Positions 1 to 2,601 of a stretch of DNA of 2,601 nt are shown here, piece by piece. The notes below the pieces were generated by a model that was not told the DNA's origin, did no database searches, and saw only the letters and a list, made by a program, of their open reading frames with translations. The position numbers were made by a program, and so were the translations under genes. The stretch is from Naegleria gruberi (lineage: Eukaryota), in NCBI GenBank assembly GCA_000004985.1, contig GG739256.1; one strand, given 5' to 3'. The stretch's first letter is position 1. Each line of letters opens with the position of its first letter.

Positions 1-324
1 AAAGGGTGAGTGGTTTAAATCTCTTCTGACTGATGTTGAAGATGACGATGACGAAGAGGACGATGAAGGAGAGGATGATCTTCCTGTTGTTGTATTCCTT
101 CTTGATGAAGTAGATCTTGATGAAAAAGATGTTTTCTTATTATTATTGTAAGAAGTTGTTGATGATGATGAACCTCGTAAATAGGAATTAATTAGTGAAG
201 ATGAGAACTTATTCACTTGTTGACCAAGTAACTTCGAAGCTGATGATGCATCAACAATGACTTGTTGCTTCTTGGAAAAAATTCCGCAATTGAAAGTGAT
301 TGGGTTGAGAATAAATTTCTTCAT
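1..324 (-). CDS. N-terminal part of a Ser/Thr/Arg/Asn-rich low-complexity protein (3'-partial, continues beyond window start)
   Basis: ATG at complement(322..324) in an A-rich context (aaaaaaATGaag). All 108 codons are open to position 1: MKKFILNPITFNCGIFSKKQQVIVDASSASKLLGQQVNKFSSSLINSYLRGSSSSTTSYNNNKKTSFSSRSTSSRRNTTTGRSSSPSSSSSSSSSTSVRRDLNHSPF. The ATG coincides with a sharp switch to extreme AT-richness at 325. It is absent from the ORF track only because it has no in-window stop. Caveat: the antisense plus frame (2..151) is also open and reads as an acidic D/E tract, so the strand is not certain. Confidence 0.5.
   Translation of the reverse strand, partial: MKKFILNPITFNCGIFSKKQQVIVDASSASKLLGQQVNKFSSSLINSYLRGSSSSTTSYNNNKKTSFSSRSTSSRRNTTTGRSSSPSSSSSSSSSSTSVRRDLNHSPF
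31..78 (-). repeat. imperfect trinucleotide (TCN)n / antisense (GAN)n tract encoding poly-Ser (SSSPSSSSSSSSSTS)
   Basis: On the minus strand 16 consecutive codons are TCA/TCT/TCG/TCC/CCT/ACA. The plus strand shows gatgacgatgacgaagaggacgatgaaggagaggatgat. Shorter (GAT)3 at 161..169 and (TTA)3 at 137..145 lie nearby. Confidence 0.6.
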
Positions 325-544: not shown

Positions 545-805
545 ATGATTCGAACGGTTTGCAAGTCAGTATACAACAAACGAATGGTTTCTCATTTGAA
601 AAGATCAATACAAAATAATTCTAAACGAAACTATTGTCAATCACAGTGTAAACTCTTCACACCAATCATTGTGGAGAGTGGATCATGTCTGGAAGGTTTC
701 TTTTCCAATACTAAACTTGAATTTGATATTGAAACTGGACAATTAATATCAGATTATCAAGATCCAAAACAAGTTTCGATTAATGGAACAAGAAATTACG
801 AATGA
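545..805 (+). CDS. hypothetical small protein (86 aa, 7 Cys); coding status doubtful
   Basis: A complete ATG..TGA ORF with A at -3 (atcaacATGa). Its composition is less AT-rich than the adjacent intergenic block and it has no homopolymer runs. I recognise no family motif. It overlaps nothing else, but it is convergent with and only 58 bp from the MFS stop, so it could equally be 3'UTR/intergenic sequence. Confidence 0.25.
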   Translation: MIRTVCKSVYNKRMVSHLKRSIQNNSKRNYCQSQCKLFTPIIVESGSCLEGFFSNTKLEFDIETGQLISDYQDPKQVSINGTRNYE

Positions 806-838
806 GTCATTTAAACACCCGTTGGATTCAGAAATTGA

Positions 839-844
839 TTTATT
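839..844 (-). terminator. AATAAA polyadenylation positioning-element candidate for the MFS gene
   Basis: Plus tttatt at 839..844 is AATAAA on the minus strand, 20 nt downstream of the TAA stop (866..864). A T-rich tttgtttg lies immediately upstream on the minus strand. Confidence 0.35.
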
Positions 845-863
845 CAAACAAATCTAAATCAAA

Positions 864-1397
864 TTATGCATCCTTGCTTTCTGTCAATTGGATATCTTTG
901 GTATCATTTTCCACGTTTCCATTTTGAGTTTCCTCTTCTTTCGTCTGCACATTTTCAACTCCTGCAACACTAATTGCCTTTTTTTCAGCTTCCTTCTTTG
1001 CTTTAGCAACAGCTCTCTTTGCAATAATATTTGGTGAAGTTTCCTCCAACAAGGTCGAATAAATAATAATTCCAATAAAAGAAAATCCAGCAAAAATAAA
1101 CCAAGGAACTGCCTGATTTGTCATTACAACAACAGGAATGAAAAACAATGAGAGAATAATTGAAGTTGACCACATGGCAATCGTGCTGATTGAAGTACCC
1201 AAAACGACAACCTTCTCATTCTCACCCCTAAAAACTTCATATGCCAAAACATAACCAAGTGAACCAACACCAACATGAAAACCTATTAAATACAAACAAT
1301 TGAACAAGAGAGCGAGGGCTACTTTGTAAACTTGTCCATTTTCTCCAAATTGAAAGATGAAACCTTCTGCAAGATCTGTTAAGAAACTGACAGTGAA
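864..1397 (-). CDS. MFS transporter, exon 2 (TM9 C-terminal half through TM12 plus Lys/Glu-rich C-terminal tail), stop TAA at 866..864
   Basis: The frame opens exactly at the acceptor (FTVSFLTDLAEGFIFQF...) and completes a hydrophobic TM9 begun in exon 1 (PLMIFG|FTVSFL...). Downstream motifs match the sugar-porter C-terminal half: GSLGYVLAYEVFRGENEK (cf. GPxPWxxxSExFPxxxR) and LLEETSPN (cf. PETKG...LEE). The track start at 1307..1305 is a TTG, not a true start. Confidence 0.85.
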   Translation of the reverse strand, partial: FTVSFLTDLAEGFIFQFGENGQVYKVALALLFNCLYLIGFHVGVGSLGYVLAYEVFRGENEKVVVLGTSISTIAMWSTSIILSLFFIPVVVMTNQAVPWFIFAGFSFIGIIIYSTLLEETSPNIIAKRAVAKAKKEAEKKAISVAGVENVQTKEEETQNGNVENDTKDIQLTESKDA

Positions 1398-1441
1398 CTA
1401 TTTGCGTATTGTCAATTAGATCTTTTAAATTCAGTACTTAC
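1398..1441 (-). other. spliceosomal intron (44 nt), phase 0, within TM9 of the MFS gene
   Basis: The minus-strand sequence is GTAAGTACTGAATTTAAAAGATCTAATTGACAATACGCAAATAG. It has a canonical GTAAGT donor, a CTAAT (CTRAY) branch-like element 18 nt before the 3' end, and a TAG acceptor. Its length is not a multiple of 3, which exactly accounts for the frame shift between the two large minus ORFs. The unspliced frame hits TGA 10 codons after the donor, and the downstream frame becomes open exactly at the acceptor AG. Confidence 0.8.
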
Positions 1442-2601
1442 CCCAAAGATCATGAGTGGCTTTCTTCCAAACTTATCAACAAGGAACATGGTTGGGAAGA
1501 TGCAAAATAATTGCCATACAGAAACACCTAGTGAAGCCAATTGCTGACCTAATGGATCAGAAACTCCGGCAGCCTCAATTAATGATGGTAAAAACATGAC
1601 TGAACTCTGAATACCTGTCCATTCCATAGCAAAACATCCCCAACAAGCTATAATAAGAGCCTTAATAACTTTGGAGCAGAATAATCTCTTGCAGGCAGCA
1701 ATGGTCGACATGGTTTTCTTCTTAATGGGTGGTTCTTCTGTTATTACTGGCATTTCTATCTCTGTGTTAGCTTCTCCAGATGGTTGTTCTTGTTGTAGTT
1801 TTGGTCTTTCTTGTTCATCAATTGGAGATTCATCTTGTTGAGTTTCAATATCAGCAGCATCTTGTTCTCTTTCCAATACTTCAGAGTCATCAATCGCGTC
1901 ATTATTGACATAGGCAGAACAAACATGAGGAAGAGTCTTTATCTGTTCTTCATCAGTGTTTCCCTCCACCACAGGACGATTTTCTGTTGGATTGGCTGCA
2001 TTTTGATTTGCAATGCCCACCTTTGATTCATCCATCTTTTGCTGATGTTTCTGTTTCAATTCCTCCTCATGATCATGATGACCACCATGAATAAACAATG
2101 GAGATTCAGGAATAATAAAAACAACCAAAACAAAAAGTGGAATGATAAATAAATTGTGGAAAGCATGAACAGCTCTCCACATTTCACTCGAACGAACAAA
2201 GATTGCCCCAAAGGCATATCCCCAACAAGTACCCAAACTAATACCCAAATTGAACATACTTCCCAATAATCCCATATATTTAGGGAATGGCATCAACTCG
2301 ACAACATACACCGAAGAAACTGCAGTGACAATTCCACTTCCAAAACCCAAAATGCATCTAAAGACAATCAATGTAGAATATTGATATGATGCAGCAGCTC
2401 CAATTGATCCAATAATTGAAATTAAACAACTGAGAATGATGGATAACTTTCTACCGAGTACAGATCCTGTAAACATGGCAAACAAACATCCAAACAATCC
2501 ACCAATAAAGATACTACTAGCAAACAATCCCTGTAATATAGTTGTATCAAGATTGAATGAACTATTAGTTGCAGTTTTGGTTGCATTTCCGTTCAGAGAG
2601 T
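1442..2601 (-). CDS. MFS transporter (sugar-porter-like, 12-TM type), exon 1, 5'-partial (continues beyond window end)
   Basis: The frame is open from 2599 down to 1442. The track 'M' at 2527..2525 is a TTG codon, and upstream residues (SLNGNATKTATNSSFNLDTTILQG) continue without a stop and contain NAT and NSS sequons typical of the extracellular TM1-TM2 loop. Hallmark MFS motifs are present: G-x3-G-x-LGRK after TM2, R-x3-GFGSG-x9-Y-x2-E-x2-P in TM4, PESP after TM6, and D-K-F-G-R-K before TM9. Multiple hydrophobic helices are evident. The exon ends with ...LMIFG immediately before GTAAGT. Confidence 0.85.

What the first reader, a model, noticed from the sequence alone, without database searches (positions are those of the whole stretch)
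1673..2101. Unusually long acidic/Gln-rich central loop with an HGGHHDH histidine cluster in an MFS transporter
Between the PESP motif after TM6 and TM7 lies a hydrophilic segment of about 140 residues. This is far longer than the ~60-aa loop of canonical sugar porters. It is rich in E/D/Q (EQDAADIETQQDESPIDEQERPKLQQEQPSGEANTEIE) and opens with HGGHHDHEEE (plus 2069..2089). A His cluster next to an acidic stretch is the kind of element that can bind divalent metal or act as a regulatory or sensing cytosolic domain, as in transceptor-type transporters. The substrate cannot be assigned from sequence alone.
Basis: partly seen in the sequence, partly recalled or inferred. Interest (0 to 1): 0.5.

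Follow-up and report, generated by a model that had tools for sequence, protein, structure and literature searches.

The report
Expanded disordered loop in Naegleria transporter
A sugar-porter-type membrane transporter of the amoeba Naegleria gruberi has a cytosolic loop about three times the usual length, and most of the extra length looks like a fast-evolving, disordered, species-specific spacer rather than a conserved metal-binding or sensing domain.

Summary
The window is a whole 2601-bp Naegleria gruberi scaffold. Its minus strand encodes a sugar-porter-family MFS transporter (Pfam Sugar_tr 8e-55). The TM6-TM7 loop is 136-137 aa, against 39-53 aa in 89 canonical relatives. It has net charge -19 and starts with HGGHHDH.

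The loop is translated sequence, not an intron. It shows codon periodicity and has no stop codon or GTAAGT-type donor. An independent allele differs only by substitutions and an in-frame 9-nt indel.

The functional reading is weakly supported. The extra ~90 aa are absent from the closest paralogue (57 aa), from Willaertia (67 aa) and from N. lovaniensis/N. fowleri relatives (65-114 aa, Ser/Thr-rich). AlphaFold2 predicts them disordered (pLDDT <50). They take 4 nonsynonymous to 2 synonymous changes between alleles, against 1:11 in the TM core, and they vary by slippage-type indels.

'HGGHHDHEEELK' aligns to the canonical '(K/R)G(K/R)xEEA' start of intracellular helix ICH1, so the acidic stretch beside the His cluster is ordinary.

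One residual point: His patches recur in this Heterolobosea-centred clade, in 5 of 25 long loops against ~1 expected, including 'HHDH' in N. fowleri 4512. Thr and Lys cluster similarly. Low interest.

The parts
1442..2599 (-). Exon 1 (5'-truncated by the scaffold end) of the sugar-porter-family MFS transporter. It covers the end of extracellular loop 1, TM2-TM6, the central loop and TM7-TM8.
   Evidence: translation. Pfam Sugar_tr 8.4e-55; 100% identity to N. gruberi 'predicted protein, partial' P0001.
1398..1441 (-). 44-nt spliceosomal intron (GTAAGT...ATAG), GC 27%.
   Evidence: removing it restores the frame and gives the P0001 sequence; the three unspliced metagenome ORFs (P0002, P0008, P0009) all run into a stop just after ..FG|VS, so the position is conserved.
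864..1397 (-). Exon 2: TM9-TM12, the C-terminal helix/tail and the stop codon (TAA 866..864).
   Evidence: AF2 helices 379-542.
2099..2110 (-). N-domain SP motif, PESP (aa 164-167). The canonical Arg that follows is replaced by Leu168.
   Evidence: canonical relatives have R in 98% at this column, the Naegleria proteins have L/M/Q. The SP motif is defined in PMC7898563.
2069..2089 (-). His cluster HGGHHDH (aa 171-177). Codons are CAT GGT GGT CAT CAT GAT CAT, followed by GAG GAG GAA.
   Evidence: Shuffle P=6.5e-4. It aligns to the '(K/R)G(K/R)x' cap before ICH1. Canonical relatives have K/N/R at the H174 column.
1994..2101 (-). Predicted long helix aa 167-202, equivalent to ICH1 and extended. 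It contains the His cluster and EEELKQKHQQKMDES.
   Evidence: AF2: helix 167-202, block pLDDT 73/90/78. phmmer alignment to GlcP 4LDS and STP10. No difference between the two alleles in aa 168-210.
1712..1993 (-). Lineage-specific disordered acidic/Gln-rich insert (aa 203-296).
   Evidence: AF2 pLDDT <50 for 206-285. Uversky <H> 0.363 against a boundary of 0.478. Absent from P0008, P0009, Willaertia and 8621/4512. 4 nonsynonymous / 2 synonymous changes plus one indel between alleles.
1853..1885 (-). Low-confidence helix aa 239-249 (SEVLEREQDAA). MAFFT aligns it with DPxLLKKERD of N. lovaniensis/N. fowleri paralogues. It may be an ICH2 relic or a chance match.
   Evidence: helix 239-249, pLDDT ~40-45. 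(alignment columns 446-460).
1780..1788 (-). In-frame 9-nt indel polymorphism inside an imperfect CAA repeat: CAACAAG[AACAACCAT]CTGG.
   Evidence: window against L001.
1682..1711 (-). Conserved amphipathic helix before TM7 (MSTIAACKRLF, aa 297-306). It is the C-terminal anchor of the loop.
   Evidence: M297, R305, L306 and F307 are invariant in the Naegleria family. AF2 helix 299-306, pLDDT rising to 81-94.

Best explanation
The segment is the cytosolic TM6-TM7 linker of a divergent sugar-porter-family transporter. The transporter belongs to a clade so far seen mainly in Heterolobosea.

The two ends of the linker are the conserved, structured parts.
- An ICH1-like helix directly follows the PESP motif. 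Its N-terminal cap has become His-rich: HGGHHDH stands in place of the canonical (K/R)G(K/R)x, and EEE in place of EEA.
- A short helix (MSTIAACKRLF) precedes TM7.

Between these ends the N. gruberi gene has gained about 90 residues of acidic/Gln-rich, intrinsically disordered sequence. [quoted passage not shown] It most likely acts as a passive spacer. At most it carries short, evolutionarily labile regulatory sites, for example CK2-type [ST]xx[DE] sites at T215, T253, S258 and T279. It is not a folded metal-binding or sensing domain.

Shown: real coding sequence, length excess, lineage specificity, predicted disorder, relaxed constraint, slippage-type indels, and homology of the His/acidic start to the ICH1 cap.

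Inferred: the growth mechanism, the lack of a specific function, and the cytosolic location (from sugar-porter topology).
For: Coding, not an intron or artefact:
- Codon-position GC is 0.60/0.32/0.27, and GC3 matches the rest of the CDS. The intron is 27% GC and the intergenic region 17%.
- No stop in 143 codons (P=5e-5), against 5 and 17 stops in the other frames.
- No GTAAGT-like donor in the loop.
- An independently assembled metagenome allele (L001) reproduces the loop with only 6 substitutions and an in-frame 9-nt indel.

Length excess and lineage specificity:
- 137 aa against 39-53 aa in 89 canonical relatives.
- Within the family: P0008 57, P0009 58, Nlov 8621 66, Nfow 4512 65, Willaertia 67, 8622/4511 83/80, 8623/4510 110/113.
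- Composition differs by lineage: net charge -19 here against 0 to -6, and Ser/Thr 27-40% in the N. lovaniensis/N. fowleri paralogues.
- In the rooted tree the window gene pairs with P0008 (82% bootstrap), and the six N. lovaniensis/N. fowleri genes form their own clade (100%).

Relaxed constraint: 4 nonsynonymous to 2 synonymous changes in the loop against 1:11 in the TM core, Fisher P=0.022, pN/pS 0.50 against 0.00-0.05.

Slippage: both allele indels lie in imperfect short repeats.

Disorder: AF2 pLDDT <50 for residues 206-285 while the TM core exceeds 90. The charge-hydropathy value falls below the folding boundary. No Pfam domain is found in the loop.

ICH1 homology: phmmer alignments to GlcP 4LDS and STP10, column statistics, and a Foldseek top-hit list of sugar porters led by PfHT1, GLUT3 and STP.
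Against: - The allele comparison rests on only 18 coding substitutions. A pN/pS of 0.5 cannot separate neutrality from weak constraint.
- The first 43 loop codons, which include the His cluster, show no change between alleles. Only about one synonymous change would be expected there, so this is uninformative rather than contrary.
- His-rich patches persist at the same place in P0008, Nfow 4512 and Nlov 8621. His clusters are over-represented in long loops of the clade: 5 of 25 against 0.95 expected, P=0.002. This hints at some selected property.
- Long central loops recur in the clade (22 of 139 relatives exceed 70 aa), so loop length itself might be favoured.
- Disorder does not exclude function. 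The plant TST/TMT loops are long, disordered and phospho-regulated (PMC3584717, PMC12143150).
Confidence: 0.7

Rival explanations
1. The His patch at the ICH1 cap is a functional metal- or pH-responsive switch. His residues replace the basic residues of the cytosolic SP-A charge network, which gates the outward/inward transition of sugar porters. Protonation or Zn/Ni/Cu binding would then tune transport. H174 sits where GLUT1 has Arg218, and L168 where GLUT1 has Arg212.
For: - H174 occupies a column that is K/N/R in 73% of canonical relatives. The PESPR arginine is lost in the whole clade.
- In GLUT1, Arg218 and Arg223 of ICH1, together with Glu209 of the SP motif, form a charged network and a proposed intracellular modulator site (PMC7898563).
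- AF2 puts H171/H174/H175/H177 in or at the start of a helix. That gives i,i+3/i+4 spacing, which suits bis-His sites (inference).
- A His-rich patch is retained at this spot in P0008 (HGGNHQQH), N. fowleri 4512 (HHDH) and N. lovaniensis 8621 (HQQQH).
- (HX)n-type clusters occur in other long loops of the clade: Pharyngomonas NHEHKHEHG, P0142 EHRHHMHHEG, P0260 HHAHVH. That is 5 of 25 against 0.95 expected.
Against: - The patch is not conserved residue by residue, even between the orthologues Nfow 4512 and Nlov 8621.
- It is absent from P0009, 8622/4511, 8623/4510 and Willaertia.
- In the more distant relatives the His clusters lie at non-homologous positions.
- His clustering (z=4.9) is no stronger than Thr (5.4) or Lys (3.8) clustering in the same loops, so it fits generic low complexity.
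- The codons are doubled triplets (GGT GGT CAT CAT GAT CAT GAG GAG), typical of slippage.
- Six His in 136 aa is far below bona fide metal loops such as E. coli RcnA, with 17 His in 67 aa (PMC11247825).
- 3 of 110 canonical short loops also reach 3 His in 7 residues.
Confidence: 0.12
2. The long loop is a phospho-regulatory or protein-docking platform, working like the large central loop of plant tonoplast sugar transporters (TST/TMT). Kinases or adaptors would bind the disordered acidic segment and modulate activity or trafficking.
For: - Four CK2-type [ST]xx[DE] sites and one SP site lie in the insert.
- Long loops recur in the clade.
- There is precedent: AtTMT1 is phosphorylated by VIK on its large central loop, and 12 phosphosites were mapped in the barley orthologues' loop (PMC12143150; PMC3584717).
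- A short helix-forming motif (SEVLEREQD) aligns with DPxLLKKERD of other Naegleria paralogues.
Against: - None of the candidate sites is conserved in paralogues, because the whole insert is missing from them.
- [ST]xx[DE] matches are expected by chance in any acidic sequence.
- The mid-loop motif alignment is low-confidence. DPxLLKK could instead be the ICH1 (EEELKQK) equivalent.
- There are no phosphoproteomic data.
Confidence: 0.15
3. The loop is an artefact: an unrecognised intron, a mis-assembly of a tiny scaffold, or a pseudogene region.
For: - The scaffold is only 2601 bp and the gene is 5'-truncated.
- The main-assembly gene model (P0010) is chimeric across a gap.
- No transcript evidence was available.
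Against: - An independent metagenome assembly reproduces the loop with in-frame variation only.
- There is strong codon periodicity and coding-level GC.
- No stop in 143 codons, P=5e-5.
- No GTAAGT-type donor in the loop.
- The flanking TM core is under strong purifying selection, 11 synonymous to 1 nonsynonymous, so the gene is not a pseudogene.
Confidence: 0.02

Closest known systems
Sugar porter family (TC 2.A.1.1; Pfam PF00083), e.g. GLUT1/GLUT3, PfHT1, STP10, XylE, GlcP, with their intracellular helical (ICH) domain in the TM6-TM7 loop
   Same: - 12-TM MFS fold. Foldseek top hits are PfHT1, GLUT3 and STP, and Sugar_tr scores 8e-55.
- PESP follows TM6, an ICH1-like helix follows directly, and a helix precedes TM7.
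- The C-domain A motif DKFGRK is present, and PROSITE-type signature 1 is matched (the pattern was recalled from memory).
   Different: - The loop is 137 aa against 39-53 aa, with about 90 aa of disordered insert.
- PESPR has become PESPL and PETKG has become EETSP.
- The sugar-coordinating columns are systematically swapped: Q to N117, Q to E326, N to Q331, N to Q363, W to Y435.
- Extracellular loop 1 is about 130 aa (P0002/P0010).
- The substrate is unknown.
Plant tonoplast sugar/monosaccharide transporters (TST/TMT)
   Same: They are sugar-porter-family members with a greatly extended hydrophilic cytosolic TM6-TM7 loop. In plants this loop is a phosphorylation target (PMC3584717, PMC12143150).
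   Different: - No sequence similarity was detected in the loop. No Pfam or other domain is found, and no TST appeared among the named hits.
- From my own knowledge, plant loops are much longer (about 300 aa) and are conserved among orthologues. Here the insert is specific to one N. gruberi gene.
- Regulation is unproven here.
His-rich cytosolic loops of metal transporters (RcnA; ZIP and CDF families)
   Same: A cluster of His next to acidic residues in a cytosolic loop of a membrane transporter. (HX)n-like strings occur in some clade members.
   Different: - The fold and family are different.
- His density is far lower: 6 His in 136 aa, against 17 in 67 aa in E. coli RcnA and 33-53 in cable-bacteria RcnA (PMC11247825).
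- The cluster is not conserved in position across the clade.
SLC22 (OCT/OAT/URAT) and SV2 transporters
   Same: The overall topology combines a large extracellular TM1-TM2 loop with an enlarged cytosolic TM6-TM7 loop. They appear as lower-ranked Foldseek hits (URAT1, OCT1, OCTN2, SV2A).
   Different: Sequence and fold scores are clearly better to classical sugar porters. No SLC22-specific motifs were examined.

Membership tests
Sugar porter family (Pfam PF00083 / TC 2.A.1.1) | Significant match to the Sugar_tr profile above the gathering threshold | tested here: met
   186.9 bits against a cut-off of 22.3, E=8.4e-55. The match falls in two stretches split by the loop.
Sugar porter family (Pfam PF00083 / TC 2.A.1.1) | 12-TM MFS fold with an intracellular helical domain, closest to solved sugar porters | tested here: met
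   AF2 model with pLDDT 80.8 and a TM core above 90. Foldseek top 38 hits are all sugar porters (PfHT1, GLUT1/3/4/5/7/9, STP6/10, XylE, GlcP), E down to 1e-13.
Sugar porter family (Pfam PF00083 / TC 2.A.1.1) | N-domain SP motif PESPR after TM6 (PMC7898563) | tested here: inconclusive
   PESP is present, but the Arg is replaced by Leu168. Canonical relatives have R in 98%.
Sugar porter family (Pfam PF00083 / TC 2.A.1.1) | C-domain SP motif PETKG after TM12 (PMC7898563) | tested here: inconclusive
   The window has E504-E505-T506-S507-P508. Only E and T are kept.
Sugar porter family (Pfam PF00083 / TC 2.A.1.1) | A motifs (GxxxDRxGRR/K) in the TM2-3 and TM8-9 loops | tested here: met
   The C-domain LVDKFGRK is fully canonical. 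The N-domain GSVLGRK keeps G-R-K but lacks the acidic residue. PROSITE-like signature 1 matches at aa 370. Signature 2 fails by a one-residue spacing (patterns recalled from memory).
Sugar porter family (Pfam PF00083 / TC 2.A.1.1) | Conserved sugar-coordinating residues: TM5 Q, TM7 QQ..N, TM8 N, TM10 W (GLUT1 Q161, Q282/283, N288, N317, W388; numbering from my own knowledge) | tested here: not met
   Columns that are 92-98% conserved in canonical relatives are changed to N117, M325/E326, Q331, Q363 and Y435. These changes are invariant within the Naegleria family. It is a family member by fold and profile, but hexose specificity cannot be assumed.
Plant TST/TMT-type 'long central loop' sugar transporters | Long central loop that is conserved among orthologues and phosphorylated | tested here: not met
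   The loop is long, but the insert is absent from the closest paralogue and from other species. Phosphorylation cannot be tested with these tools.
His-rich metal-binding loop (RcnA/ZIP/CDF type) | High His density, (HX)n repeats, conserved among homologues | tested here: not met
   6 His in 136 aa, with a single 4-in-7 cluster. There is partial retention in 3 relatives and absence in 6. The benchmark is 17 His in 67 aa (PMC11247825).
His-rich metal-binding loop (RcnA/ZIP/CDF type) | Demonstrated metal binding | not testable with these tools
   This needs ITC/IMAC on the aa 164-205 peptide.
Transceptor / nutrient sensor (Snf3/Rgt2 type) | Signalling extension (a C-terminal tail with conserved repeat motifs) and loss of transport | not tested
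   The extension here is in the central loop, not the C-tail. The C-tail (aa 507-563) is a Lys/Glu-rich helix followed by a disordered end. No Snf3-type motif search was done.

The most novel reading that the evidence does not exclude
A Heterolobosea-centred clade of sugar-porter-like transporters has lost the Arg of PESPR and remodelled its binding site. In this reading the clade repeatedly places His-rich patches in the cytosolic ICH/central loop. In N. gruberi the patch sits exactly at the ICH1 cap, where canonical porters carry the basic residues of the SP-A gating network. The patches would act as pH- or metal-titratable switches on transporter gating, a regulatory principle not described for sugar porters.
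Probability: 0.1. Interest if true: 0.55.

Novelty: new member of a known kind. Interest (0 to 1): 0.2.

Why it matters
As it stands this is mainly a clean-up result. A striking loop turns out to be a species-specific disordered expansion of the ordinary ICH linker of a sugar porter.

Three things are of modest use:
- The scaffold repairs a chimeric N. gruberi gene model.
- It helps define a Heterolobosea-centred subclade of sugar-porter-like proteins with remodelled SP motifs and binding-site residues. The clade includes three tandem genes in the pathogen N. fowleri, and its substrate is unknown.
- It gives a natural series of linker lengths (57-190 aa) between MFS half-domains. That series could be used to ask how tolerant alternating-access transport is to tether length.

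If the His patch proved to be a pH or metal switch on the SP-A network, it would be a new regulatory mode for this very well studied family.

Tried and rejected
- Unrecognised intron in the loop: rejected on codon periodicity, GC, the absence of stops, the absence of a donor consensus, and in-frame allele variation.
- Tandem repeats in the loop DNA: Tandem Repeats Finder found none at score >=30. Only short imperfect repeats lie around the allele indels.
- Loop-only protein search (aa 186-296): no hits at all. It also missed P0001 and P0002, which contain the loop, so the search failed its own positive control and carries no weight.
- Pfam scan of the loop alone: nothing at E<=1.
- Fetching the main-scaffold context through P0010: not on record.
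- Synteny of the downstream gene with N. lovaniensis: tblastn found no similarity. The window's neighbour is the DEAD-box helicase instead.
- Literature searches for a characterised Naegleria sugar/glucose transporter: nothing specific to this family.
- 1:1 orthology with N. fowleri or N. lovaniensis genes: rejected. Duplications are lineage-specific, with 100% bootstrap for the N. lovaniensis/N. fowleri clade.
- The mid-loop motif (SEVLEREQD ~ DPxLLKKERD) as a conserved ICH2: left undecided. The alignment is weak, and the N. lovaniensis/N. fowleri motif may instead correspond to ICH1.
Full report
WHAT THE WINDOW IS

The 2601-base window is an entire small scaffold of Naegleria gruberi. The database protein P0001 ('predicted protein, partial [Naegleria gruberi]', on a contig of 2601 bp) is 100% identical to the product.

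The gene lies on the minus strand.
- Exon 1 is 2599..1442. Its 5' end is cut by the scaffold end.
- A 44-nt GTAAGT...ATAG intron is 1441..1398.
- Exon 2 is 1397..864, with stop codon TAA at 866..864.

The spliced 563-aa product matches Pfam Sugar_tr at E=8.4e-55. An AlphaFold2 model built on a 95-sequence alignment has mean pLDDT 80.8 and a TM core above 90. Its best Foldseek matches in the PDB are all sugar porters: PfHT1, GLUT3, STP6/10, GLUT1/4/5/7/9, XylE and GlcP, with E down to 1e-13.

CHECK OF THE OBSERVATION

All the coordinates hold on the minus strand.
- PESP is aa 164-167 (2110..2099).
- HGGHHDH is aa 171-177 (2089..2069).
- The quoted acidic/Gln-rich string is aa 245-282.
- KRLFCSK/TM7 starts at aa 304-309 (~1690..1673).

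From PESP to KRLF the loop is 136 aa, with D+E 23%, Q 9% and net charge -19. Within the same alignment boundaries, 89 non-Naegleria sugar porters have 39-53 aa (median 45), against 137 here. Four His in seven residues is reached in 0.065% of shuffles of the whole protein and 0.27% of shuffles of the loop.

IS IT TRANSLATED SEQUENCE?

Yes.
- The loop has clear codon periodicity, with GC at positions 1/2/3 of 0.60/0.32/0.27. Its GC3 equals that of the TM regions. The real intron is 27% GC and the intergenic DNA 17%.
- The chance of 143 stop-free codons at this composition is 5e-5. The other two sense frames have 5 and 17 stops.
- No GTAAGT-like donor occurs in the loop.
- The strongest evidence comes from an independently assembled metagenome contig (L001, sample ERZ929261). 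It carries a 97%-identical allele (P0002) that covers window 2601..626. In the loop the two alleles differ by six substitutions and one in-frame 9-nt indel.

HOW THE LOOP EVOLVES

Between the two alleles the TM core (aa 1-167 and 306-506) has 11 synonymous and 1 nonsynonymous change, giving pN/pS 0.00-0.05. The loop has 2 synonymous and 4 nonsynonymous changes, giving pN/pS 0.50, plus the indel. Fisher's exact test gives P=0.022.

Both allele indels lie in imperfect short repeats, the pattern expected of replication slippage.
- In the loop: CAACAAG[AACAACCAT]CTGG.
- In the C-tail: GCTGTT[GCTAAA]GCAAAG.

The His-cluster codons are themselves doubled triplets: GGT GGT CAT CAT GAT CAT GAG GAG. 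The numbers are small. They show relaxed constraint relative to the core, not proven neutrality.

RELATIVES

The first word-indexed search found only Naegleria proteins before a steep drop to bacterial sugar porters at about 25% identity. The exhaustive phmmer search added more:
- Willaertia magna (P0121);
- N. fowleri FDP41_004512 (P0266);
- Pharyngomonas kirbyi (P0131);
- several metagenomic eukaryote-like proteins.

The named members of this clade are all heteroloboseans.

A tree of 237 TM-core columns was rooted with Pharyngomonas. The six N. lovaniensis/N. fowleri genes form one clade (100% bootstrap) made of three orthologue pairs: 8621/4512, 8622/4511 and 8623/4510. In N. lovaniensis the three genes are tandem (locus L004). 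The window gene groups with P0008 (82% bootstrap). P0008 is a paralogue from the same N. gruberi-like metagenome organism. The window gene therefore has no 1:1 orthologue outside the N. gruberi complex.

Loop lengths are as follows.

| Protein | Loop length (aa) |
|---|---|
| Window gene | 136 |
| Its allele (P0002) | 133 |
| P0008 | 57 |
| P0009 | 58 |
| Nlov 8621 | 66 |
| Nfow 4512 | 65 |
| Willaertia | 67 |
| 8622 / 4511 | 83 / 80 |
| 8623 / 4510 | 110 / 113 |

The longer N. lovaniensis/N. fowleri loops are Ser/Thr-rich (27-40%) and nearly neutral in charge. They are not acidic/Gln-rich. The simplest reading is an ancestral loop of about 60-67 aa that expanded independently, with different compositions, in different lineages. 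The roughly 90 extra residues here are specific to this one N. gruberi gene.

ANATOMY OF THE LOOP

HMMER aligns 'PESPLFIHGGHHDHEEELKQKHQQKMDESK' to GlcP 'PESPRWLLENR--NEEAARQVMKITYDDSE' and to STP10 'PDTPNSMLERGKNEEAKQM'. That region is the turn after TM6 plus intracellular helix ICH1.

Column statistics agree.
- L168 replaces an Arg that is 98% conserved (the R of PESPR).
- H174 lies in a column that is K/N/R in 73% of canonical relatives.
- The neighbouring columns hold the conserved Gly and the acidic 'EEA'.

AlphaFold2 predicts one long helix over aa 167-202, with block pLDDT 73/90/78. Residues 206-285 fall below pLDDT 50, apart from a low-confidence helix at 239-249 (SEVLEREQDAA). A helix at 299-306 then leads into TM7. 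The insert also falls on the 'natively unfolded' side of the charge-hydropathy boundary, at 0.363 against 0.478. It has no Pfam match.

So 'a His cluster next to an acidic stretch' is largely the standard ICH1 start, in which basic residues have been replaced by His and two extra residues have been added. The rest is a disordered insert held between two conserved anchors.

MAFFT aligns the mid-loop helix with DPxLLKKERD of the 8622/8623-type paralogues. I could not decide whether this is an ICH2 relic, a mis-aligned ICH1 equivalent, or chance.

THE HIS PATCH

The patch is identical in both alleles.

| Protein | Sequence at this position | Status |
|---|---|---|
| Window gene and its allele | HGGHHDH | present |
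| P0008 | HGGNHQQHGE | partly kept |
| N. fowleri 4512 | EPHHDHNDIELK (compare GGHHDHEEELK in the window) | partly kept |
| N. lovaniensis 8621 | VQHQQQH | partly kept |
| P0009 | none | absent |
| 8622/4511 | none | absent |
| 8623/4510 | none | absent |
| Willaertia | none | absent |

Further out, His clusters occur at non-homologous loop positions: Pharyngomonas NHEHKHEHG, P0142 EHRHHMHHEG and P0260 HHAHVH. Among 25 distinct loops of at least 60 aa, five reach 3 His in 7 residues. The expectation is 0.95 from pooled composition (P=0.002) and 1.73 from within-loop shuffles (P=0.0135).

Several points weaken a functional reading.
- In the same test Thr (z=5.4) and Lys (z=3.8) cluster as strongly as His (z=4.9).
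- The sequences are related, so the counts are not independent.
- 3 of 110 short canonical loops also reach the threshold.
- His density here (6 in 136 aa) is far below genuine metal loops such as RcnA, with 17 His in 67 aa (PMC11247825).

One mechanistic lead remains. In GLUT1 the SP-motif Glu209, together with Arg218 and Arg223 of ICH1, forms the cytosolic SP-A charge network that biases the outward/inward equilibrium. It also forms a proposed site for an intracellular modulator (PMC7898563). H174 aligns with Arg218, using the GLUT1 sequence from memory anchored on the numbering in that paper. A titratable or metal-binding replacement at that position could, in principle, modulate gating. 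This is inference only. I give it about 10%.

MOST LIKELY MECHANISM

[quoted passage not shown] Its functional parts are the two conserved anchors: ICH1 with a His-rich cap, and the pre-TM7 helix. It may carry labile CK2-type sites at T215, T253, S258 and T279. There is precedent in plant TST/TMT loops, which are phosphorylated (PMC3584717; PMC12143150). None of these sites can be conserved here, because the insert is unique to this gene.

COMPARISON WITH KNOWN FAMILIES

By profile and fold the protein is a member of the sugar porter family. It departs from the family in several defining details.
- PESPR has become PESPL.
- PETKG has become EETSP.
- The 92-98% conserved sugar-coordinating columns are changed to N117, E326, Q331, Q363 and Y435. 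These changes are invariant within Naegleria.

Hexose specificity should therefore not be assumed. I found no paper characterising this family in Naegleria.

VERDICT

The feature is real, but it is best explained as a lineage-specific low-complexity or disordered expansion of an ordinary structural linker. Interest is low (0.2). The recurrence of His patches in the clade and the remodelled binding site are the only points that might repay experiments.

Noticed in passing
window 1-324, minus strand: An ORF starting at ATG 324..322 (MKKFILNPITF...STSSRRNTTTGRSSSPSSSSSSSSSSTSVRRD) runs off the left end. It is identical to an internal stretch of P0010, the N. gruberi 'ATP-dependent RNA helicase' of 857 aa. 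The first ~245 aa of P0010 are the N-terminus of this transporter. P0010 is therefore a chimeric gene model built across an assembly gap, and this scaffold bridges that gap. After VRRD the window is out of frame with P0010 (LNHSPF against YKPLTL). That points to a 1-nt indel near position ~20, either allelic or an error at the scaffold end.
   Followed up: partly
window 626-863 (includes + strand ORF 545..805, 86 aa): The 3' flank between the transporter stop and the helicase start differs from the second allele by only 1 substitution and one 2-nt indel (at 797) in 238 nt. Synonymous sites of the transporter differ at pS ~0.044, so the Poisson probability is 3e-4. The region is therefore more conserved than synonymous sites. 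It could be a 3'UTR or promoter element, or a small gene. The 86-aa ORF has a basic N-terminus and only a sub-threshold Pfam hit (APP_N, 20.2 bits against a cut-off of 22.1). The 2-nt indel would frameshift its last codons.
   Followed up: partly
window 2540-2599 minus strand; N-terminus in P0002/P0010: The protein also has an unusually large (~130 aa) Ser/Thr/Asn-rich extracellular TM1-TM2 loop with N-x-S/T sequons (NGNATKTATNSSFN). Together with the long TM6-TM7 loop this gives an SLC22-like overall topology. This loop is also highly variable across the Naegleria family.
   Followed up: no
window aa 117 (2249-2251), aa 326 (1622-1624), aa 331 (1607-1609), aa 363 (1511-1513), aa 435 (1251-1253): Columns that coordinate sugar in canonical porters, 92-98% conserved as Q, Q, N, N and W, are N, E, Q, Q and Y/F here. 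These residues are invariant across the Naegleria family. The binding site is systematically remodelled (Gln and Asn swapped), so the substrate may not be a hexose.
   Followed up: partly
L001, L002, L003 (metagenome ERZ929261); L002 around the TM4 region: All three N. gruberi-type paralogues share the intron position after ..IFG|GTAAGT. Paralogue P0008 carries an extra in-frame read-through segment (GKFPIFKMEMFRICSVA) in TM4. It looks like an additional unspliced intron that the window gene lacks.
   Followed up: no
L004 4449-12130 (N. lovaniensis PYSW02000035.1); N. fowleri FDP41_004510-004512: The family forms a head-to-tail array of three genes in N. lovaniensis. In N. fowleri the three genes carry consecutive locus tags, each orthologous to one N. 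lovaniensis gene. The duplications post-date the split from the N. gruberi lineage, which has its own three paralogues.
   Followed up: partly
window 1002-1007, minus strand (C-terminal tail, aa ~517-518): A second in-frame allele indel (6 nt, GCTAAA = Ala-Lys) lies in the Lys/Ala/Glu-rich C-terminal helix. Like the loop, the tail changes length by slippage.
   Followed up: yes
(tool behaviour): The word-indexed protein search with the loop alone returned one candidate and no hit, although P0001 and P0002 contain the query exactly. Negative results from that tool on low-complexity queries should not be trusted.
   Followed up: no
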